From: Naegleria gruberi
Taxonomy: Eukaryota
Assembly (NCBI GenBank): GCA_000004985.1
Contig: GG738931.1
Direction: 5' to 3' (one strand)
Length of the DNA stretch: 64,000 nucleotides
Shown: in pieces, positions 49,999 to 63,162 of the stretch
Layout of the letters: each line of letters starts with the position of its first letter
Position numbering within the stretch: position 1 is the first letter of the stretch
Made by a program: the position numbers and the translations under genes
Notes under the pieces: generated by a model
Databases searched by the model: none
What the model saw: only the letters and a program-made list of their open reading frames with translations
Told to the model about the DNA's origin: nothing

Positions 49999-52900
49999 CT
50001 AATGGCATGTCTTGCTATTTACTAAAAAAGTTGCTTGTTTTGCTAGATAGCTTTGGTCAAGGTTCTTGAAAGGAATTAGTGCTTTACATTCACTATCTTC
50101 TAATTTGGAAAGAGCCTGAATAACCTTATGTACATGGGAATTTGTGAGTCTGTCACCACTTCCTGGGAATTCATAATCTGATTTGAAGAGAGTTGCCAAT
50201 CTCAATAACATTTCATTTTCCTCTTTCGTATTTCTCTCGTTCAGTATTTGCTTCCATTTCTGATAAGTTACATTTTGCATTGGCTCCTTTTTCAATAATT
50301 TAGCTTCTGTTGTTGCTGCTATGGAGAGTAAATCGTCAATGTGAATGACGAATTTATCTAGATTTGCCAACTCGAATATGAAATAGTTTGGATTTTCGTG
50401 AAGATCTGTTACGAATGCATTCTCATTCTGTGTCAACTGTACAATGACTCTTGAAATAATATCTACTGGGACAATGTTTAGAGTTCTGTTCGTCTTTGGG
50501 AAGCAATTCATTTCAAAACATCCCATGACTAATCTATTGACCCAATCTATTAAATTAGAAACTCCATTGACAGTATCACTTCCAATCATACCAGGTCTGA
50601 AAATGGCTCCTGGATATCCCAATAATCTTGCTTGTTGAATATATTGTTCGGCAACAAACTTGGTGCTACTGTATCCATTAGCTCTTTCAATAATTGGTTT
50701 GAGTTGCCTCATGACTTGATCCATGTGATTGTTAATTAAATCCGTAATATCTTTCTTATTGCTAATTCCAGATGTACTGGTTGGTATTCCAAAGAGTGAT
50801 AATCCAGATTGCAATACTCCAACTGTAGAGACGAAAACTATTGGGGCTAAAGTGGAATCTCCACTTTGAATATTCAATTTAGATGATAAGCAAGCCAATT
50901 TCAATAATGAAAGAGTAGATCCAGTATTTGAGGAAAATAATTGAGGATATGACATGACAGAGTTGACATACGCTCCGTTGTGATAAATAATATCAATATT
51001 TTCTGCCAGTTTCTTGAATTCTTCCTCAGTGAGTCCTAAATTATCATCTCCTAAATTACCCTTGACAACTGAAATTCTCTTTTCATACTTGTCATTCCAA
51101 AGTTTGAATTCCACAAGGTTTTCTTTCACTCTCATGAAAACGTCATCTTGATGATTCTTTTCTCTGACTATACAATAGACTTTGACATTTTCTTCAGCTT
51201 TCTCTAATGCTTCCAATAAATCTCTCAATATAAATGCTCCTAGGAATCCTGTTGAACCTGTCAATAGAATACCCTTCTTCAAATCGGCTATCTTTTTAAA
51301 TTGCGTATTTCCTCTTGATGTGAGGTCTATAATGTCATTCAACACATCTTCAGGAAGGAGAATATCCTTCTTCCAATCATGGGATGAATTGACTGTGGCA
51401 ACATCATCATGTTGGTTTTTGGTGACAAAATCTGAAACTCTACTCACTACGCTATCCACATTTCTGTCAGTTTGAGAAAATATCAGCGAGAGTGGAACAT
51501 CAATGTTATACTTTTGCTTCATAATACCAGAAAATTTAACAGCGTGAAGACTGTCAATAATTTTCATATTTCCATCAGATTCAGCTGAACCTGTTTGAGA
51601 ATTTAACAATAATTCACGAATCAAATCTTCATCCAATTTCCTCTTGTTAATAGACTCTAGGTGCTCATAAAGAGCTTCCAACTCTTCCTTATACTTCATT
51701 TCGCATCCAAATCTCTTAACTTTCATTGAAGAGGTAAGGAGATCGTTCTTCTCACTAAATGACTCAAATTCAATAATAAAGTCCTTTGGCACTTCGTATG
51801 GAAGAAGAGAGCAGTTCACAGATACTTTCTCAATTTCCTCACACAAAACCTTTTTAACCTTTTCATTGGTTTTCAGCAAGTCCTTCTCTGAATCACTCAA
51901 GAGCTCTTCACTTGATGAGTTGATGAGCCCTTCCTTGATTGCAAATTGTTTCAAAACCGTTTGATTAGGTACAATTACACCTACAAGGTAGCTTTTCGAC
52001 ACATTTCCATAAATGAAAGCTTGGAAGATGAATTTTGAGGTAGTCAGAGCATCTTCAATCTTTGCAGGTGCAATAAATTCTCCTTGACTCAATTTGAAAA
52101 TATTCTTGAGTCTGTCAATAATTCTAATGTGTCTTGGACCTAGCTCCTCAACAATATCATTAGTATGCAACCATCCTTCCTCATCCAAAGCGTTTTTCGT
52201 AAGTTCTTCATTCTTGTAATATCCAATGAACATGGTTTTTGTTTTAACACAAAGTTCTCCTCTTGGATAAGGTTTGTCATTTGTGAAATAGTTCATGTCA
52301 GGTACGTCAACCAACTTGTACTCAACAGAGCTATGAAGTCTGTTATCATTCATGATACCTCCTGCTTCTGACATTCCAAAACCATCTGAAACGAAGCAAT
52401 TAAAACATTTTCCAAGAAATTCTCTAACTTGTGGGCTTGAAGAGGCTCCTCCAATAATTATTGATTGTAAGCGACCACCCAACATGTTTCTAAAATCTTT
52501 CATTACTCTTTCTTCAAGTTCTCTCTCCGTTTTAGGTCTATCCTCATTTTGATTCGAAATACCTGAAAGCCAACTTGTCTTTTCCAATTCGTACACTTTT
52601 TTATACTCATCATAGAGTACATTATAAAGTCTTGGTGTTGAGGCAATGACAGTAGGTTTGACCTTTTGAATATCCTCAAAGATGTGAACAAAATCTCTGG
52701 TAAATATTCCCACTCTAGCACCATCACACATGGCCAAAAGGGTGTGTTTTCTGTCACTCATGTGAGCAAGAGGACAGAATGAAAATTGTACTTTTGGATT
52801 TTCAGCTCTGAAACCATGCATTTCTCTTCTCAGAGATTTGTCACTAACCATTATGCCCTTCGGCTGACCTGTCGATCCACTCGTGAAAACTAACGATAGA

Positions 52901-53973
52901 AGATCCTCATCTTTTTCTAGTCTATTCAAAATAAAGTCCTGGTGTTCCACATCAATCCACATCTTATTTGGATTATACTTGTTTTTTGGAGTGACGAGGA
53001 TAGTCTCGTGATTTTCAAAGTGTTTTGGATATCTTTTTTTCTTAGGTTTGTTCTTTTCGTTCAAGTATTCACATAAGATTGATTTTCCCTTGTCAATAAT
53101 CTCGTTCATTGGCAGAATTTCAATTTCTTGTTTACCACTGTTTGTTGTGAATTTACTCTTGGATTTTCCTTCATTATCATCCATTACTACAATATATTTT
53201 ACAAAGTCCAATTGTTTTGTAATGCTGATGAAAAAATCGAGCATTTCTAAAGTACAAACGACAACCTGACTATCGGTCAGTTCAACAATATGTTTCGTCT
53301 CATCAAAAGTTTGGGCAAAGTGAATAGGAGCAGCCACAAATCCCTTGAAGAAACAAGCATAATCACACAAGTACCAATATAAATTATTCTTTCCACAAAT
53401 GGATACAAATTGTCTCTTATTTTCCTCCCTCAAAGGTTTTAAAATTTCATCCAGTCCAACAGCAATACAACAAACCAAGTGGAATACTTGTTCATATCGA
53501 AGCCAATGATAAGGTCCGTCATCCTCTTTCAATATTCCAAAGCAAGGATTCATTGAATTTTCAATAAAACTCCGAAACAGTGTACTATTGACACGATCGG
53601 CCTCTGATCTTTGTTTGATTTCATGATAGTGATATTTTGTTGGTACAAAATATTCAAGATCCTCACAAAATGTTTCCAACCAGAGTTCTCTTTCCTTTTC
53701 TTCTGGTGTTTTTTCCTCATTGTCAACTTGTTGATGATTAGGAGATGCATTCTTCCTTCTCTTCTTACATTTATCCCAACACCAATCGTAACACTTCTCG
53801 CACAAATCAGTTCCCTTGTCATTGGTATTGGTATATCGGATTGTGTTTTCAATAACACCCAAACACATATTACAAATCCATCGATATGAAACCGATGTGA
53901 CGGTGAAGTTGGTTGGTTTTTCCTCCACTTGCAGTTTTCCACGAGAGAATAGGGAGGTGATCTTGTTGAGCAT
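49999..53973 (-). CDS. tri-domain enzyme: an ACSL-like adenylation (AMP-binding) domain, a carrier-protein (thiolation) domain and a C-terminal NAD(P)-dependent thioester reductase. It has an N-terminal Cys-rich zinc-finger-like segment.
   Basis: AMP-binding signature LVFTSGSTGQPKGIMV. The ACSL-like core is GELCVKTKTMFIGYYKNEELTKNALDEEGWLHTNDIVEE. After the A-domain end (VPKDFIIEFESFSE...KVKRF) comes a carrier-like segment with DSL (ESDGNMKIIDSLHAVKFSGIM). Then a reductase Rossmann motif ILLTGSTGFLGAFILRDLL and YSSTKFVAEQY (YxxxK). The N-terminus has C..C...C..C (CNMCLGV...CEKCYDWCWDKC). It is a single 1324-aa ORF. Confidence 0.85.
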   Translation of the reverse strand: MLNKITSLFSRGKLQVEEKPTNFTVTSVSYRWICNMCLGVIENTIRYTNTNDKGTDLCEKCYDWCWDKCKKRRKNASPNHQQVDNEEKTPEEKERELWLETFCEDLEYFVPTKYHYHEIKQRSEADRVNSTLFRSFIENSMNPCFGILKEDDGPYHWLRYEQVFHLVCCIAVGLDEILKPLREENKRQFVSICGKNNLYWYLCDYACFFKGFVAAPIHFAQTFDETKHIVELTDSQVVVCTLEMLDFFISITKQLDFVKYIVVMDDNEGKSKSKFTTNSGKQEIEILPMNEIIDKGKSILCEYLNEKNKPKKKRYPKHFENHETILVTPKNKYNPNKMWIDVEHQDFILNRLEKDEDLLSLVFTSGSTGQPKGIMVSDKSLRREMHGFRAENPKVQFSFCPLAHMSDRKHTLLAMCDGARVGIFTRDFVHIFEDIQKVKPTVIASTPRLYNVLYDEYKKVYELEKTSWLSGISNQNEDRPKTERELEERVMKDFRNMLGGRLQSIIIGGASSSPQVREFLGKCFNCFVSDGFGMSEAGGIMNDNRLHSSVEYKLVDVPDMNYFTNDKPYPRGELCVKTKTMFIGYYKNEELTKNALDEEGWLHTNDIVEELGPRHIRIIDRLKNIFKLSQGEFIAPAKIEDALTTSKFIFQAFIYGNVSKSYLVGVIVPNQTVLKQFAIKEGLINSSSEELLSDSEKDLLKTNEKVKKVLCEEIEKVSVNCSLLPYEVPKDFIIEFESFSEKNDLLTSSMKVKRFGCEMKYKEELEALYEHLESINKRKLDEDLIRELLLNSQTGSAESDGNMKIIDSLHAVKFSGIMKQKYNIDVPLSLIFSQTDRNVDSVVSRVSDFVTKNQHDDVATVNSSHDWKKDILLPEDVLNDIIDLTSRGNTQFKKIADLKKGILLTGSTGFLGAFILRDLLEALEKAEENVKVYCIVREKNHQDDVFMRVKENLVEFKLWNDKYEKRISVVKGNLGDDNLGLTEEEFKKLAENIDIIYHNGAYVNSVMSYPQLFSSNTGSTLSLLKLACLSSKLNIQSGDSTLAPIVFVSTVGVLQSGLSLFGIPTSTSGISNKKDITDLINNHMDQVMRQLKPIIERANGYSSTKFVAEQYIQQARLLGYPGAIFRPGMIGSDTVNGVSNLIDWVNRLVMGCFEMNCFPKTNRTLNIVPVDIISRVIVQLTQNENAFVTDLHENPNYFIFELANLDKFVIHIDDLLSIAATTEAKLLKKEPMQNVTYQKWKQILNERNTKEENEMLLRLATLFKSDYEFPGSGDRLTNSHVHKVIQALSKLEDSECKALIPFKNLDQSYLAKQATFLVNSKTCH

Positions 53974-54110: not shown

Positions 54111-55616
54111 TTAAAGAATCCACATGAAGAGAATCAAACAAGTGGAGACAACAAGTGTTGTCCAAAAGATACTCGACAATGAGTACAGATACTTCTTAAA
54201 GGTGTGATTCAATCCATATACTTCCTGAATGAATGTGCTTACGGTTGTGAGGGAGCCACAAAATCCAACCGAGAATGCATCAATCCAATAAACAGCAACA
54301 CCAGAGGTGAAACCTGAAACGTAGGCAGTACCTTGTAAAATAACCAAGATTAGAGAGCCAATGATATTGACAGCAAGTGTGAAAATTGGCATTTGGAATC
54401 TTTCAACAGCTTTAAATGTAATATTTAGCTTGCAAATTAAATATCTCAATAAACAGCCAAGAGGAGCAACGAGGAGAGTGAGGCAAAGACTTTGATCCAA
54501 TGATTTTGAAACGTTCATAGCACCAAGCAGAACAATAAAAACTGAAATGACAGCCATCAAAACTACAAACAAATCAACAGCCATTTTGATTGCTGTTCTT
54601 GATTTCCATTTGGCATTTCTAATTTGTTGATACTCTTCCAGTAATTTTCTTTTGAATAATTCTCCATTACTCTCGGCAATATATTTAATTTCACCTTCTT
54701 CCAAGAGAATCTTTCTCTGATCCTCATTTGGAATTGGTTCTACAATATCTACATCTTCAGCCAATCCAGAAGCAACACTCGAAGATGCAATTGAATTAAC
54801 ACTATTTTGACTTGTCATTGTGACCTGTTGTGGCGCCTTTGCATTTCCAAATTTCTTCCTCAAAACAGGAATCACAAAACTCAAAATTGCATTTGTAATA
54901 TCCTTCGCAATTACAAATGCAAAATAACAAGTTGTAAAACCAACTACTTGCTTACTCACAAACGACAAGACATCTCCCTTCATTAAACTAATTGCAGCAT
55001 TCACTTGCCAACTTGAAAATGTTGTAATGCATCCACACATCCCAGTCGATAGTCCAGTATATATCCTCTTCTCAAACGACAATGTTCCATGAAAAACTCT
55101 ATGCAGAAACAACTTGACCATTCTCTTCTTTGATTCCTCCATTCCTTCCAAAGATATTGCTGATGAATTATTACTCTTCACCATAATAGGAGTATTACTT
55201 TCACTACTACTACCATTATTATTATTATTAGTAACCTTATTCTTTTCCAATTCAACTAACAAGGCCTTCTCCTTCTCCTTCAACTCTTCCAAAGGCTTTT
55301 TAATAAAGTGCAAATGAATGACCATTAAAACTCCCATGATGAAGCAACCCACAATATTTGCATACAAATCGGAGAAGAATAAATCATCAATGGATTGAAC
55401 GATATTACCATTGGATGATGTCGATGGATTCATAATATTGTTATTATTGCTATTATTATTGGAGGAGGAGAGGGAAGGCTTGTAGAGAGTGTCGGAGAGA
55501 AGAATTCGAATTAAAACACCAATCATGCAGAATACGATGAGGTAGGCAATGTAGAGTAAATGTTTGGATAAATTGATGGCAAATTTGAAATTTTCTTTGA
55601 GTAGTTGCATTGTCAT
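54111..55616 (-). CDS. fluoride export protein FEX (tandem CrcB/Fluc domains)
   Basis: Two CrcB-like halves, each with the signature G..G..TTFS.[FW]: GMCGCITTFSSWQVNA and GFCGSLTTVSTFIQEV. Eight to nine TM helices. There is a long N/S-rich and charged loop between the halves. Confidence 0.75.
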   Translation of the reverse strand: MTMQLLKENFKFAINLSKHLLYIAYLIVFCMIGVLIRILLSDTLYKPSLSSSNNNSNNNNIMNPSTSSNGNIVQSIDDLFFSDLYANIVGCFIMGVLMVIHLHFIKKPLEELKEKEKALLVELEKNKVTNNNNNGSSSESNTPIMVKSNNSSAISLEGMEESKKRMVKLFLHRVFHGTLSFEKRIYTGLSTGMCGCITTFSSWQVNAAISLMKGDVLSFVSKQVVGFTTCYFAFVIAKDITNAILSFVIPVLRKKFGNAKAPQQVTMTSQNSVNSIASSSVASGLAEDVDIVEPIPNEDQRKILLEEGEIKYIAESNGELFKRKLLEEYQQIRNAKWKSRTAIKMAVDLFVVLMAVISVFIVLLGAMNVSKSLDQSLCLTLLVAPLGCLLRYLICKLNITFKAVERFQMPIFTLAVNIIGSLILVILQGTAYVSGFTSGVAVYWIDAFSVGFCGSLTTVSTFIQEVYGLNHTFKKYLYSLSSIFWTTLVVSTCLILFMWIL

Positions 55617-58645: not shown

Positions 58646-60090
58646 TTAAACCTTAATAAGAGAAGCAGATACAGTAGAAGCTTGATTGAGTCCACTGATA
58701 GCATACAATGTATGCCAACAATTGCTAGCTGGCCAAGTGAATACGAAACTTTGTCCATTATTAAGAGCTCCACTATTGATTACCTTTGTAGAATTATTAC
58801 AATCCAAATTGAATGAAAGACGCAATTGACCACCTCCTGTTGTAATAGCAGTGAGATTGTACGATTGACCAGCAATTGGCTTGGCCCATTTCAACTTGGC
58901 AAAACCAGTTCCATTACTATTGGTTTGAGTAACACGAGCACTCTTAGATGGGAAAACTACAGCTTGTTTGTAAGTATCAAAAACTCCCAAAGCATCACCA
59001 GATTGCAATGTCCATGGTCCTCTCATTGACAACAAGTTTTGATTTTGTGTAAAAGTAACTGGTTGACCATCACCATTCAACCAACTGGAGGCACTAACAA
59101 GAGGACGTAAAGCAGCTCTAATAGTTTGCAATTCACTGGCTGCGGTGTTACTCCAACCACCAGGAGGATGCAATGAGTAATTGGCTCCAATTTCAACATA
59201 GATTGCATATGGAGTTCCATAATTTCTATCCACAACTCTGGCTCCATAAGTTTTCAAAGTTTCGGCAACTTTTCTAAGCTTTTGAGTGGTCAACTTGGAA
59301 ACATTGAATGAGGAAGGGAGCATTAACAAACTACCTTCTGGAATTGCTCCAGAATTGGTTGTGGCAGCATCACTATCTGCAGAGGTGGCTGGGAAAACAT
59401 AAGTATTACTTCCATTAGCAAGAGCATTGTAAGTTAGGGATAAAGCCAATGCATGTCTGTACATGATATCACCATCATCAACTTCGTGCTTTCTAATAAT
59501 TCCTGCAGAGCTGACGATACCAACGGCACGAGCACCCTGATAGTAATGAGCTGGATCACCCCAACCAGTTCCATCCAAAGCAGCCCATCCATAGAGAGTA
59601 GCTCTCCAAACACCTGTTACATTCTTGAGTTGCCAGAATGAGTGAATAACCTTTGCAATTGGATCCTACAAAAAAAAATATTCGAAAGTTCAATATGTTA
59701 AATATGACAAGAAAAACTTACAAAAATTTCACAATGTCCATCAGATCCAGTTGCTGGAACTGTATTAGCTGGCCAACGTGGAATTACCATACTAGTAACA
59801 GATCCACCAATATCAACATTCTGAATACCAACAGTTGCTGAAGGTCCGTAAATGGTCATTGGTTGATCAGTTGCTGAGGCAATAAAGACACCAGTTGAGT
59901 AAGCACCTGCTTGGATAGCTGGGAAATAAATTGAAGTTGGAACTGTGACACCTGAAAGAATTGGGTTGACTGGACGACTATTCCACAATGAGTTGACTGA
60001 GAATGGTTTGTTGACCGTTCCCCATTGTGCTGCTACATAACTTGCAGCAGCGAGATAGCAAAGAGTAATAGCTAGGATTACTTTAAACAT
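58646..60090 (-). CDS. secreted hypothetical protein (about 440 aa) with two exons. Its composition is G/A/T-rich, bacterial-like.
   Basis: Exon 1 spans about 59722..60090 (signal peptide MFKVILAITLCYLAAASYVAAQ...GSDGHCEIF). The intron spans about 59666..59721 (GTAAGTTTTTCTTGTCATATTTAACATATTGAACTTTCGAATATTTTTTTTTGTAG). Exon 2 spans 58646..59665 (DPIAKVIHSFWQLKNVTGVW...). The junction is in frame. There are no TM helices after the signal peptide. Confidence 0.6.
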
Positions 60091-60769
60091 TTTGATTTTT
60101 TTTTGTTTCGAATAAGGTTTAGTTTGTTTAACAATGATCTTTTTAAAGGGTTTGGTTTGTTACAGGTTCGAATAGATTACGAGACATAACAAAGCACGTT
60201 CTAGTGTGGAATGTCAACTTGAATTAAAAAGTTTAGTGTATTCACAAATCATTATTCGAATTAGTATGTTGTCAATCATTGAAGAGCTCATGATATCTCG
60301 AACGGTGAATAAAAAGCGAAAACCATACATGAATTTCGCAATGTTAAATAATCCACGGTTGTGTTGGATTCGGCAATTTGTATAAAAAAGTTGTAAACTT
60401 TGCAATTCTCTTGAAAAAGCATTTGTAAATTTATCAAACCTTATCAAAGGTTTTTCAATGAACTGGAATGTACGTAGTATGAAAAGTTGTAGTCTCCCAG
60501 TTTATAATATCACGACTACGGTAGAATATTGTAATGGTTGAATTGAATTTATTAAAATTTTAATATTCAGTAATCGGATGGTGATTTCCAAGTAAAGTAG
60601 GTTGTAACAAGATGTTTCAACGATTGTAAACTTGAATTGACTTTTGAAGAAGGTATCAAGAATTTACAAAATGATCCAAATATCAAGTTCACGAATTTAA
60701 AGAAACAACTTTCAATACTTTACAATAAATTAATTGTATTATTAATATAAATTAAAGTTCAAAAAAAAA

Positions 60770-61729
60770 ATGACACAACACCAAACCAAAGGACTTTTTC
60801 GAGTTCATCATCATTCAAATGTCATTTCTGTCTTGACACAAGTATTGTTACATTTAGATCCAATCATGAATAGATACAATAATTATAACATTAATTCACA
60901 TTCGTCTAAAATAGAAAGTGAAATGTTGCAAGCTTTTGATTCAATTGGAAGAAAAGTGTGGAATAATCAAGAATTGGAAATTGATATTTCGGAATTTTAT
61001 TCTTTTTTCTCATTGGAAACTTGGGACAAATTTATTGATCTTGAAGAAATGTTTCAATTTACAATAACAAATTGTAAACTATTGAATCAATACTTTAATA
61101 CAACTGAGAAACGAACAACCACTTTTGAAATTTGTCCTACCTGCCAAATAGATTATGGAAAGAAGGAGAATATTTCAAATTATTGTACATTTATCTATTC
61201 GAAAGATAAATGGAAACAATTTAGAGAAACTAATGAGATTTATCAAGATCCAATTCCATTCATAAAGGGATACCACTGTACAAGTTGTTATTCATTCCTT
61301 GAGATTATGCTGAAATCGACTATAATTGAAGCTCCTGAAATATTGCTCTTGAAATTACACTCTTCAATTGAGAATAACTATTTTTTATACGAATTTAATG
61401 TCCATGAACATGTTAAATTATTAGTAGACGAATCGATTGACAATTCACATCATCAGGAATATGAGCTAGTTGCCGTAGTTGACTATTATAGAGAAAGAGG
61501 AATTTATGGAGGATTTTTCAAAAATCCAATGAATAGAAGGTGGTATCAAATGAATGCTCATTCCATTGATGACTTCCCCAAACTGGTTGAAGATTTGAGT
61601 TGTATCAATTCAACCTCAAATTTTATTCTATTCTTCCAGAAAACAGTGGAAAGGAAACCAATTTATTGGAAATCTGTGTTATCCAATCGATTTGTATACT
61701 GGGACGTTTCATTTAGCTTCACTGAATAG
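60770..61729 (+). CDS. ubiquitin-specific-protease (peptidase C19)-fold protein lacking the catalytic Cys and His (predicted inactive pseudo-deubiquitinase)
   Basis: The Cys-box position reads KGLFRVHHHSNVISVLTQVLLHL, where G[LF].N.GN.CY.NS.LQ.L is expected; there is no Cys. The zinc-ribbon pairs CPTCQ...CTSC are present. The His-box position reads YELVAVVDYYRERGIYGGFFKNPMNRRWYQMNAHSIDD, where Y.L.[AG]V..H.G....GHY.....W..FND..V is expected. GHY is replaced by GGFF. Confidence 0.6.
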   Translation: MTQHQTKGLFRVHHHSNVISVLTQVLLHLDPIMNRYNNYNINSHSSKIESEMLQAFDSIGRKVWNNQELEIDISEFYSFFSLETWDKFIDLEEMFQFTITNCKLLNQYFNTTEKRTTTFEICPTCQIDYGKKENISNYCTFIYSKDKWKQFRETNEIYQDPIPFIKGYHCTSCYSFLEIMLKSTIIEAPEILLLKLHSSIENNYFLYEFNVHEHVKLLVDESIDNSHHQEYELVAVVDYYRERGIYGGFFKNPMNRRWYQMNAHSIDDFPKLVEDLSCINSTSNFILFFQKTVERKPIYWKSVLSNRFVYWDVSFSFTE

Positions 61730-61930: not shown

Positions 61931-62263
61931 ATGCAAACCAGAAGTCATGATAAGAACCTCAATCAAGATGAGGAAAATCTCGAAGTTCGTGACATGAAGC
62001 ATGGCTATGTTGCTGGCGATTCATCAGAGACCCTACCAGGTGGTAGAGAGAAGGGACCTCGTGAACACTTTGAAGAAATCTGCCGAGATGAAAACTATGA
62101 AATTGAAAAGCATCATACCAATGTCAGAGGTGACTATACTGTCGTCTTTAAGCACAAGTATGGTGGTAAGGATCAAACTTTCCCTAATATTTCAAGAGAG
62201 AGAATTGAGAATATGCCATCAAGAGTTAAGGATGTCATCTTGAAGAAGAAGTCAATCTATTAA
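61931..62263 (+). CDS. small hypothetical charged protein (110 aa)
   Basis: An ATG after an A-rich leader. The protein is hydrophilic (DEENLEVRDMKHGYVAGDSSETLPGGREKGPREHFEE). There are no motifs. Confidence 0.4.
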   Translation: MQTRSHDKNLNQDEENLEVRDMKHGYVAGDSSETLPGGREKGPREHFEEICRDENYEIEKHHTNVRGDYTVVFKHKYGGKDQTFPNISRERIENMPSRVKDVILKKKSIY

Positions 62264-62475
62264 GGATGTGTATGACAAATCTATCATATGATTAGTTAGA
62301 ATAATATTAAAATCTTTGTATATATAAATTGTAAATAAATAATTCAAATAATTGTGAGAATTTTTTATTCTATAATTTCAAATTTGGAAAGCCAATTTGT
62401 TTTTCAAAATGTTTGATCCATTCCAAACACTGTTAATATCCATATGTCAATTCCTTGAATAATTGGCCTCCTATC

Positions 62476-63162
62476 TTATTCCTTATAAACAGCAATTGCT
62501 TCAATTTCAACTTTGGCCTTCTTTGGTAATCCAGAAGCTGCATAACAAACTCTTGCAGGCTTATTGTCACCAGAGAAATCTGAATCAATGAGAGAGTCAA
62601 TTGATCAATCAAATAGACAATGACAACAACTTACATTCACTGTAAACTTCATTCACAGCTTGGAAATCATTAATATCAGTCAATAAAACAGTTGTTTTCA
62701 CAACATCTTTCAAAGTACAACAAGACAATATATTAAATTTCACACAATTCCAATTCACATATAAAATGTTAATCATTACAAAAAGGTCAACAAAATATTA
62801 CTCACCTCACCATCAATTCCCAAACATCCACTAATATAAAAGTTACCATTTGCCTTCACACCTTGTGAATAAGGTCCAATAGCTCTCGGTGCCTTCTTTG
62901 CACTATTCACATAGACAATGGATGAATCATCAACACCTGAAGTGGAGGAAGAACTCGAAGCAGATGCCAAATTCATCTGACAACTCATGGAAAAGTAACA
63001 CTTCACCTCAGCAGAAGTACTCGTTACCATTGAATTTCCAATCATCATCTCTCCTGGGGCACTACTTGGCAAAACCTTATATGAATGAGGATTCGACCGA
63101 GTGGTGATATTCTTATATTTAGCCAATCGATTGACTTGTTTAGTAGGAACCTTTCTAAACAT
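62476..63162 (-). CDS. RidA/YjgF/UK114-family reactive-intermediate deaminase homolog. It has three exons and a long N-terminal extension.
   Basis: Exon 1 ends at about 62811 (...AKKAPRAIGPYSQGVKANGNFYISGCLGID). Exon 2 spans about 62635..62706 (DVVKTTVLLTDINDFQAVNEVYSE). Exon 3 spans 62476..62579 (YFSGDNKPARVCYAASGLPKKAKVEIEAIAVYKE*). Intron 2 spans 62580..62634 (GTAAGT...ttcAG). Intron 1 spans about 62707..62810 (G|GTGAGG...gaaAG), which is the only frame-consistent solution. Exons 2 and 3 closely resemble human RIDA (VVKTTVLLADINDFNTVNE...FPARAAYQVAALPKGSRIEIEAVA). Confidence 0.7.

What the first reader, a model, noticed from the sequence alone, without database searches (positions are those of the whole stretch)
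60770..61729. USP-fold protein with both catalytic residues replaced (pseudo-deubiquitinase)
The Cys-box and His-box positions of a C19 peptidase are recognisable, but the nucleophile Cys is absent (FRVHHHSNVIS) and GHY is replaced by GGFF. The zinc-ribbon CxxC pairs are kept, so the fold is probably retained as a ubiquitin-binding or scaffold module. Dead DUBs act as regulators in other eukaryotes, but they are poorly catalogued in amoebae.
Basis: partly seen in the sequence, partly recalled or inferred. Interest (0 to 1): 0.5.

Follow-up and report, generated by a model that had tools for sequence, protein, structure and literature searches.

The report
Catalytically dead USP-fold protein, Naegleria
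This Naegleria gruberi gene encodes a small protein that keeps the shape of a ubiquitin-removing enzyme but lacks the cysteine and histidine the chemistry needs. Its relatives in three Naegleria species lack the histidine too, so it is a lineage-specific "dead enzyme" of a kind already known elsewhere, and moderately interesting at most.

Summary

- **Histidine:** the His of the GHY box is Ile245 here and Ser/Val/Val in the relatives. The loss therefore predates the split of these species.
- **Cysteine:** there is no Cys in the first 101 residues. The nucleophile position is Ser16 or Asn17, depending on the alignment register.
- **Retained features:** both zinc-ribbon CxxC pairs, and the Asp/Glu of the QQDxxEF box, are invariant in the four proteins.
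- **Selection:** the N. lovaniensis and N. fowleri genes show dN/dS of about 0.22.
GHY aligns with G-I-Y, not GGFF. No upstream exon is needed.

Verdict: a new, genus-restricted member of the known class of pseudo-USPs. A ubiquitin-binding or scaffold role is inferred, not shown.

The parts
60770..61729 (+). Single-exon gene for a 319-aa USP-fold pseudoenzyme (N. gruberi XP_002669124.1 / NAEGRDRAFT_75936 / UniProt D2W3G5), stop codon included
   Evidence: The ORF is. It is 100% identical to P0001, with accessions. A chance ORF of this length has probability about 1e-12.
60791..60862 (+). Degenerate Cys box (aa 8-31, GLFRVHHHSNVISVLTQVLLHLDP). It corresponds to GLxNxGNTC[YF]xNSxLQxL, with the nucleophile position occupied by Ser16 or Asn17.
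   Evidence: No Cys occurs before residue 102. MAFFT places S16 under the Cys. HMMER against USP2 keeps the conserved Gln aligned, which implies N17. The AF2 helix starts at residue 18. This region is not significant on its own in hhalign or hmmsearch.
61037..61048 (+). Remnant of the QQDxxEF box (aa 90-93, D-L-E-E). D90 and E93 are conserved across the family and the USPs aligned here.
   Evidence: D90 and E93 are invariant in A2, A3 and A4. hhalign aligns them with RDAAEYF.
61133..61144 (+). First zinc-ribbon pair, C122-P-T-C125
   Evidence: The pair is invariant in all four family members and aligns with the first CxxC of USPs.
61277..61288 (+). Second zinc-ribbon pair, C170-T-S-C173 (in GYHCTSC)
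   Evidence: The pair is invariant in the family and in the teleost USPs. It aligns with YCxxC of USP4, USP2 and USP15.
61460..61519 (+). His box without His (aa 231-250, YELVAVVDYYRERGIYGGFF). G244-I245-Y246 stands in for G-H-Y, and the loop before it is 2 residues shorter than in the relatives.
   Evidence: The same placement appears in the residue-level alignments to USP4, USP8, USP11, USP2 and USP15, in hhalign and in hmmsearch with a USP profile.
61541..61558 (+). Third-residue box (aa 258-263, WYQMNA). N262 occupies the Asp/Asn position of W[YF]xF[DN]D.
   Evidence: The position is not conserved in the relatives, which have A/H/H.
61703..61726 (+). Family-specific C-terminal tail, D-V-S-F-S-F-T-E, beyond the USP domain
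   Evidence: The motif D-[VI]-S-F-[ST]-F-[ST]-[EN] is conserved in all four members. It occurs nowhere else in the window or the fetched loci. The AF2 model has low confidence there.

Best explanation
The gene encodes a stand-alone USP (peptidase C19) domain that cannot act as a cysteine protease. It belongs to a small pseudo-USP family found here only in the genus Naegleria.

**Shown:**
- The protein is homologous to USP catalytic domains.
- The catalytic His is replaced in all four known members (Ile, Ser, Val, Val).
- No Cys or other conserved nucleophile sits at the Cys-box position.
- The four zinc-ribbon cysteines and the Asp/Glu of the QQDxxEF box are retained.
- The N. lovaniensis and N. 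fowleri genes are under purifying selection.

**Inferred:**
- The catalytic residues were lost in an ancestor of the three species compared here.
- N. gruberi then acquired or kept two copies. The window copy is the faster-evolving one.
- The protein most likely works non-catalytically, as a binder of ubiquitin (or a ubiquitin-like protein), or as an adaptor or scaffold. It would use the fingers/palm surface plus family-specific surfaces: the WKxF motif, HL[DE]P, and the C-terminal DxSFSFxE tail.
For: **Identity.** 100% identical to N. gruberi XP_002669124.1.

**Family.** The exhaustive phmmer search found P0002 (E 3.7e-37) and P0003 (E 3.4e-14). Beyond these there were only weak hits to canonical USPs. 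The N. fowleri member came.

**USP homology.**
- Pfam UCH is passed by the three relatives.
- The family profile hits USP structures at 1e-14.
- hhalign gives probability 98.7%.

**Catalytic positions.** His is replaced by I/S/V/V, and the aligned Cys position has no Cys.

**Retained features.** The only invariant cysteines are the four zinc ligands.

**Selection.**
- dN/dS between N. lovaniensis and N. fowleri is 0.22.
- The ORF is intact against odds of about 1e-12.
- The orthologous genes are single-exon and syntenic between N. lovaniensis and N. fowleri.
Against: - Nothing here tests ubiquitin binding or expression.
- The window protein is the most degenerate member. It fails Pfam UCH, has a 9-residue deletion after the LKRF-equivalent strand and a 2-residue shorter loop before G-I-Y, and has Tyr where the relatives keep the His of the N-H motif.
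- The AF2 model is only moderately confident. Its alignment was seeded with canonical USPs, so the fold match is not independent of the sequence homology.
- The Cys-box register is ambiguous.
- The literature cautions that some 'pseudo-USPs' (USP53/54, and possibly USP52) later proved active (PMC12037411, PMC10919355).
Confidence: 0.8

Rival explanations
1. The window copy is a decaying duplicate: a gene on its way to becoming a pseudogene, with no function of its own. In this reading only the paralog P0002 and the N. lovaniensis and N. fowleri genes are functional.
For: - It is the fastest-evolving member: 82 bits to the N. lovaniensis protein, against 140 bits for its paralog.
- It fails Pfam UCH.
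- It carries deletions in the palm region and in the loop before the His box.
- No positional ortholog was found: the window flanks show no similarity to the N. lovaniensis or N. fowleri loci.
Against: - The 319-codon ORF is intact in 30% GC DNA (about 1e-12 by chance), while the other frames carry 19 and 37 stops.
- It keeps the family-invariant residues: all four zinc ligands, the WKxF motif, HLDP and the C-terminal DVSFSFTE tail.
- At 31% identity to its paralog, an unconstrained copy would have accumulated stops and frameshifts.
Confidence: 0.1
2. The protein is still a hydrolase that uses a non-canonical active site. One possibility is Ser16 with one of the adjacent His13-15. Another is rearranged residues, as has been proposed for USP52 and USP39.
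For: - A Ser sits at or next to the nucleophile position, preceded by HHH.
- N262 sits at the third-residue position.
- There is literature precedent for re-classifying pseudo-USPs (PMC12037411; PMC10919355, section 4).
- The paralog P0002 has a Cys one to two residues before the aligned position.
Against: - Neither the Ser nor the HHH run is conserved. The relatives have SNCP, SYPNY and SNPKY there.
- No family-wide conserved Cys, Ser or His could form a dyad, apart from the zinc ligands and H28.
- The canonical His is a hydrophobic or small residue in all four members.
Confidence: 0.07
3. The protein is not a USP relative at all, and the similarity is a chance or low-complexity match.
For: Pfam finds nothing for this protein. 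Single-sequence PDB hits are marginal, at E 0.013-0.056. The single-sequence AF2 model is poor, at pLDDT 33.7.
Against: - There is transitive homology through P0002 (E 3.7e-37), which scores 61.7 bits on Pfam UCH.
- The family profile hits 73 USP chains at E <= 1e-3.
- hhalign gives E 4e-16.
- A USP profile scores the window protein itself at 35.5 bits.
Confidence: 0.02

Closest known systems
Canonical USP catalytic domains of the USP2 / USP4-11-15 / USP8 type (peptidase family C19, Pfam PF00443)
   Same: - All six USP boxes appear in the canonical order.
- It has the zinc-ribbon fingers with both CxxC pairs, as in zinc-binding USPs.
   Different: - It lacks the nucleophile Cys and the general-base His. 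The oxyanion Asn and the GN motif of the Cys box are also gone.
- The N-terminal half is too diverged for Pfam.
- It has no accessory domains.
- It has an extra conserved C-terminal tail.
USP39 / yeast Sad1 (spliceosomal tri-snRNP pseudo-USP)
   Different: - USP39/Sad1 is a pan-eukaryotic protein of about 450-565 aa with an N-terminal ZnF-UBP domain.
- The window protein is 319 aa with a USP domain only, and the family was found only in Naegleria.
- Its profile match to hSad1 is much weaker (5.4e-6) than to active USPs.
- It is not an ortholog.
PAN2 / USP52 pseudo-ubiquitin-hydrolase domain
   Different: In PAN2 the domain is embedded between a WD40 domain and a DEDD exonuclease domain. Neither of those is present here.
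N. gruberi paralog XP_002669718.1 (annotated 'ubiquitin carboxyl-terminal hydrolase family protein'), N. lovaniensis XP_044553481.1 and N. fowleri XP_044564593.1 ('USP domain-containing protein')
   Same: They belong to the same family, at 25-34% identity over the full length. They share the missing His, the zinc ligands, the WKxF and HL[DE]P motifs, and the DxSFxFxE tail.
   Different: The relatives still pass Pfam UCH, and they keep the N-H motif and a longer palm region. Their database names imply an enzyme, but their sequences also lack the catalytic His.

Membership tests
USP / peptidase C19 fold (Pfam UCH PF00443) | Significant match to the family profile | tested here: inconclusive
   The window protein has no Pfam hit at E <= 10. 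Its three relatives pass (61.7, 47 and 54.4 bits against 23.9). The family profile and a USP profile both match significantly. Membership of the fold superfamily is therefore established transitively, not by the curated cut-off on this protein.
USP / peptidase C19 fold (Pfam UCH PF00443) | Fingers-palm-thumb USP architecture | tested here: met
Active USP deubiquitinase | Nucleophile Cys in the Cys box (GNTC[YF]xNS) | tested here: not met
   No Cys occurs in residues 1-101. The aligned position is Ser16 or Asn17.
Active USP deubiquitinase | General-base His in the His box (G-H-Y) | tested here: not met
   G244-I245-Y246 aligns with GHY in every alignment. The relatives have Ser, Val and Val.
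Active USP deubiquitinase | Third residue Asp/Asn after W[YF]xF | tested here: met
   N262 aligns with the Asp/Asn. The position is not conserved in the relatives.
Active USP deubiquitinase | Isopeptidase activity on ubiquitin | not testable with these tools
   This needs biochemistry: Ub-AMC, diubiquitin panels, or Ub-PA labelling.
Zinc-binding USP fingers subdomain | Two CxxC pairs at the canonical positions (USP boxes 3 and 4) | tested here: met
   C122/C125 and C170/C173 are invariant in the family and align with the USP CxxC pairs.
USP39/Sad1 orthologs | N-terminal ZnF-UBP domain plus a USP domain | tested here: not met
   The protein is 319 aa and the USP domain starts at residue 8. Pfam finds no ZnF-UBP. 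The profile match to hSad1 is weaker than to active USPs.
PAN2/USP52 orthologs | WD40 domain and C-terminal DEDD exonuclease flanking the USP domain | tested here: not met
   There are no such domains. The protein ends 25 residues after the last USP box.

The most novel reading that the evidence does not exclude
Naegleria maintains an old, genus-specific family of stand-alone dead USP domains under purifying selection. The family is defined by a conserved C-terminal DxSFSFxE tail and new conserved surface motifs (WKxF, HL[DE]P). It may act as a dedicated ubiquitin or Ubl receptor, or as an allosteric partner of an active DUB or E3. That would be a regulatory module with no counterpart outside Heterolobosea, and N. 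gruberi would be diversifying it by duplication.
Probability: 0.35. Interest if true: 0.4.

Novelty: new member of a known kind. Interest (0 to 1): 0.3.

Why it matters
Pseudo-deubiquitinases are an established class, including USP39 and PAN2 and, in other DUB families such as JAMM, several further members. They act as scaffolds or allosteric regulators. This finding adds a lineage-restricted example from a deep-branching eukaryote.

- **Annotation.** The window protein is only a 'predicted protein', although it has a USP fold. Its relatives are named as hydrolases, although they lack the catalytic His.
- **Relevance to N. fowleri.** The brain-eating amoeba N. fowleri has a member, so the family is a genus-specific component of the ubiquitin system. 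No function is known for it.

It does not open a new mechanism or settle an open question.

Tried and rejected
- **Direct Pfam scan of the window protein:** no hit.
- **Word-indexed homolog search with the single sequence:** it found only itself.
- **Exact-sequence contig look-up for the window protein:** not on record.
- **Single-sequence AF2:** unusable, at pLDDT 33.7.
- **Paralogs in the window:** none by tblastn.
- **Synteny between the window and the N. lovaniensis / N. fowleri loci:** no tblastx similarity at 1e-6. The positional ortholog of the window gene is therefore unresolved.
- **Statistical alignment of the Cys box:** hhalign and hmmsearch stay local to the C-terminal two-thirds or half, and hmmalign left the N-terminal half unaligned. 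The register (S16 or N17) is left open.
- **Third homolog search seeded with teleost USPs:** it returned only a teleost USP expansion. That was useful as an AF2 alignment but not for finding the parent clade.
- **Metagenome scan with family patterns:** the one hit is a canonical active USP, not a family member.
- **AFDB Foldseek library:** unavailable.
- **Literature search for the accessions:** nothing.
- **dN/dS for the window gene against its relatives:** dS is saturated at above 2, so it is uninformative.

Full report
**What is there.** Window 60770-61729(+) is one uninterrupted ORF of 319 codons ending in TAG. It is preceded by an in-frame TAA at 60743 and a run of A before the ATG. The DNA is 30% GC. 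At that composition a stop-free run of 319 codons has a probability of about 1e-12. None of 20,000 shuffles was stop-free, and the other two forward frames carry 19 and 37 stops. The product is 100% identical to the N. gruberi 'predicted protein' XP_002669124.1 / EFC36380.1 / NAEGRDRAFT_75936 / UniProt D2W3G5. The neighbouring genes contain introns, and the sequence identity places the window in the nuclear genome of Naegleria gruberi. That organism is a heterolobosean amoeboflagellate.

**Is it a USP?** Not by a direct test. Pfam returns nothing at E <= 10. Single-sequence PDB hits to USP4 and USP8 are marginal, at E 0.013-0.056, and cover only aa 168-291.

An exhaustive phmmer search of 1.84 billion representatives found just five other proteins:
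- a N. gruberi paralog (P0002, XP_002669718.1, E 3.7e-37);
- a N. lovaniensis protein (P0003, E 3.4e-14);
- three canonical USPs, at about 1e-4.

A profile search added the N. fowleri protein (P0007 / XP_044564593.1). The three relatives pass the curated Pfam UCH cut-off, at 61.7, 47 and 54.4 bits against 23.9.

Further evidence for homology:
- A profile of the four proteins hits 73 solved USP chains, the best being USP4 at 1.2e-14, followed by USP11, USP2, USP15 and USP8.
- hhalign against a profile of canonical USPs gives probability 98.7%, E 4e-16, over aa 89-293.
- That USP profile scores the window protein itself at 35.5 bits.
- An AF2 model built on the family plus teleost USPs reaches pLDDT 60.8 and pTM 0.59.

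Homology to the USP fold is therefore secure.

**Catalytic residues.** The His box aligns the same way in every comparison: Y231-ELVAVV...G244-I245-Y246 against Y-xLxAVxxHxG...G-H-Y. The general-base His is therefore Ile245.

The relatives have Ser, Val and Val at this position. N262 occupies the third (Asp/Asn) position, but the relatives have Ala or His there.

At the N-terminus the protein has no Cys before residue 102, so a nucleophile Cys is absent in any register. The segment G8-L9...V18..L22.Q24.L26 follows the pattern GLxNxGNTC[YF]xNSxLQxL, and the AF2 helix begins at residue 18. However, this box is too diverged to be included in the significant local alignments. MAFFT places Ser16 under the Cys. 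The register that keeps the conserved Gln aligned places Asn17 there. The Pfam matches of the relatives start at profile positions 13-15, after the Cys.

The paralog has a Cys one or two residues upstream of the aligned position. The N. lovaniensis and N. fowleri proteins have none. The only cysteines invariant in the family are C122, C125, C170 and C173, which align with the two zinc-ribbon CxxC pairs of USPs. D90 and E93 of the QQDxxEF box are also invariant. In USPs this box contacts the ubiquitin tail; that statement rests on my own knowledge and was not tested here.

**Missed upstream exon?** This is unlikely, for three reasons:
- The degenerate Cys-box helix is inside this ORF, 8 residues from the start.
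- The four proteins all begin 5-26 residues before it.
- The N. lovaniensis and N. fowleri genes are called as single exons (L001 8001-8990, L002 7925-8983).

**Evolution.**
- The His is missing in all members from three species, and each lineage has a different replacement. The loss therefore predates their divergence.
- The N. lovaniensis and N. fowleri genes are syntenic with each other, 66% identical, and have dN/dS of about 0.22. The dead family is therefore maintained by selection.
- The window gene is the most diverged member. It scores 82 bits to the N. lovaniensis protein, against 140 bits for its paralog. It also has a 9-residue deletion after the LKRF-equivalent strand and a loop 2 residues shorter before G-I-Y.
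- Its flanks do not resemble the N. lovaniensis or N. fowleri loci. It is most simply a diverging duplicate.
- It still keeps all the family-invariant residues. These include family-specific ones absent from ordinary USPs (W148-K-x-F151, H28-L-[DE]-P31) and a C-terminal tail D-[VI]-S-F-[ST]-F-[ST]-E. That tail occurs nowhere else in the sequences held.

**Mechanism.**
- Shown: a USP fold without the Cys/His dyad, and without any conserved substitute nucleophile.
- Inferred: a non-catalytic role, most plausibly binding ubiquitin or a Ubl through the retained zinc fingers, palm and acidic box. Alternatively it may serve as an adaptor through the family-specific motifs and tail. This would follow known pseudo-DUBs, which act as scaffolds or allosteric activators (review PMC10919355, section 4).
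- Caution: some USPs once called inactive have been shown to be active (USP53/54, PMC12037411). Only biochemistry can close this question. The lack of any conserved alternative Cys/Ser-His pair argues against a cryptic active site in this family.

**Comparison with known proteins.** It is not an ortholog of the two classical pseudo-USPs.
- USP39/Sad1 has a ZnF-UBP domain, and PAN2 has WD40 and exonuclease domains. None of these is present here.
- The profile match to hSad1 (5.4e-6) is far weaker than to active USP4/2/8-type enzymes.
- No paper in the library mentions the accession.
- A metagenome scan with family patterns found only an ordinary active USP.

**Verdict.** This is a new, genus-restricted member of a known kind (pseudo-USP). 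It matters mainly for annotation and as a small lead into Naegleria-specific ubiquitin biology. Interest 0.3.

Noticed in passing
window 61703-61726; L001 8964-8987; L002 8957-8980: All four family members carry a conserved tail D-[VI]-S-F-[ST]-F-[ST]-[EN] about 20 residues beyond the last USP box. It forms the extreme C-terminus in three of them; P0002 continues for six more residues. The tail has low AF2 confidence and no other occurrence in the held sequences. It may be a short linear docking motif.
   Followed up: partly
window 58646-60090 (-): Two adjacent minus-strand ORFs look like one intron-split gene for a secreted protein. One is 130 aa and starts with a signal-peptide-like MFKVILAITLCYLAAASYVAAQ. 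The other is 310 aa. Neither has a Pfam match. The gene is transcribed divergently from the USP-like gene.
   Followed up: no
window 62433-63162 (-): A RidA / endoribonuclease L-PSP-like gene appears in several ORF pieces, which suggests introns. The Pfam Ribonuc_L-PSP match covers only the first 31 profile positions of one piece (22.9 bits, below the cut-off).
   Followed up: no
window 49999-53973 (-) and 54111-55616 (-): The first ORF is a 1324-aa protein with AMP-binding and NAD_binding_4 domains, resembling a carboxylate or aminoadipate reductase. The second is a 501-aa protein with two matched CrcB stretches (Pfam CRCB, 93 bits), resembling a eukaryotic FEX fluoride exporter.
   Followed up: no
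window 61931-62263 (+): A 110-aa ORF lies immediately downstream of the USP-like gene. It is rich in charged residues and has no Pfam match.
   Followed up: no
P0002 (N. gruberi XP_002669718.1), P0003 (N. lovaniensis), P0007/P0127 (N. fowleri): The public names of these relatives ('ubiquitin carboxyl-terminal hydrolase family protein', 'USP domain-containing protein') imply an enzyme. All three lack the catalytic His, and two of them lack any Cys near the nucleophile position.
   Followed up: yes
P0005 (teleost USP-like protein, 763 aa): One of the distant hits has GETSYLNS in place of GxTCYLNS (Cys to Ser) while keeping GGHY. It may be an independent pseudo-USP within the large teleost USP expansion.
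   Followed up: no
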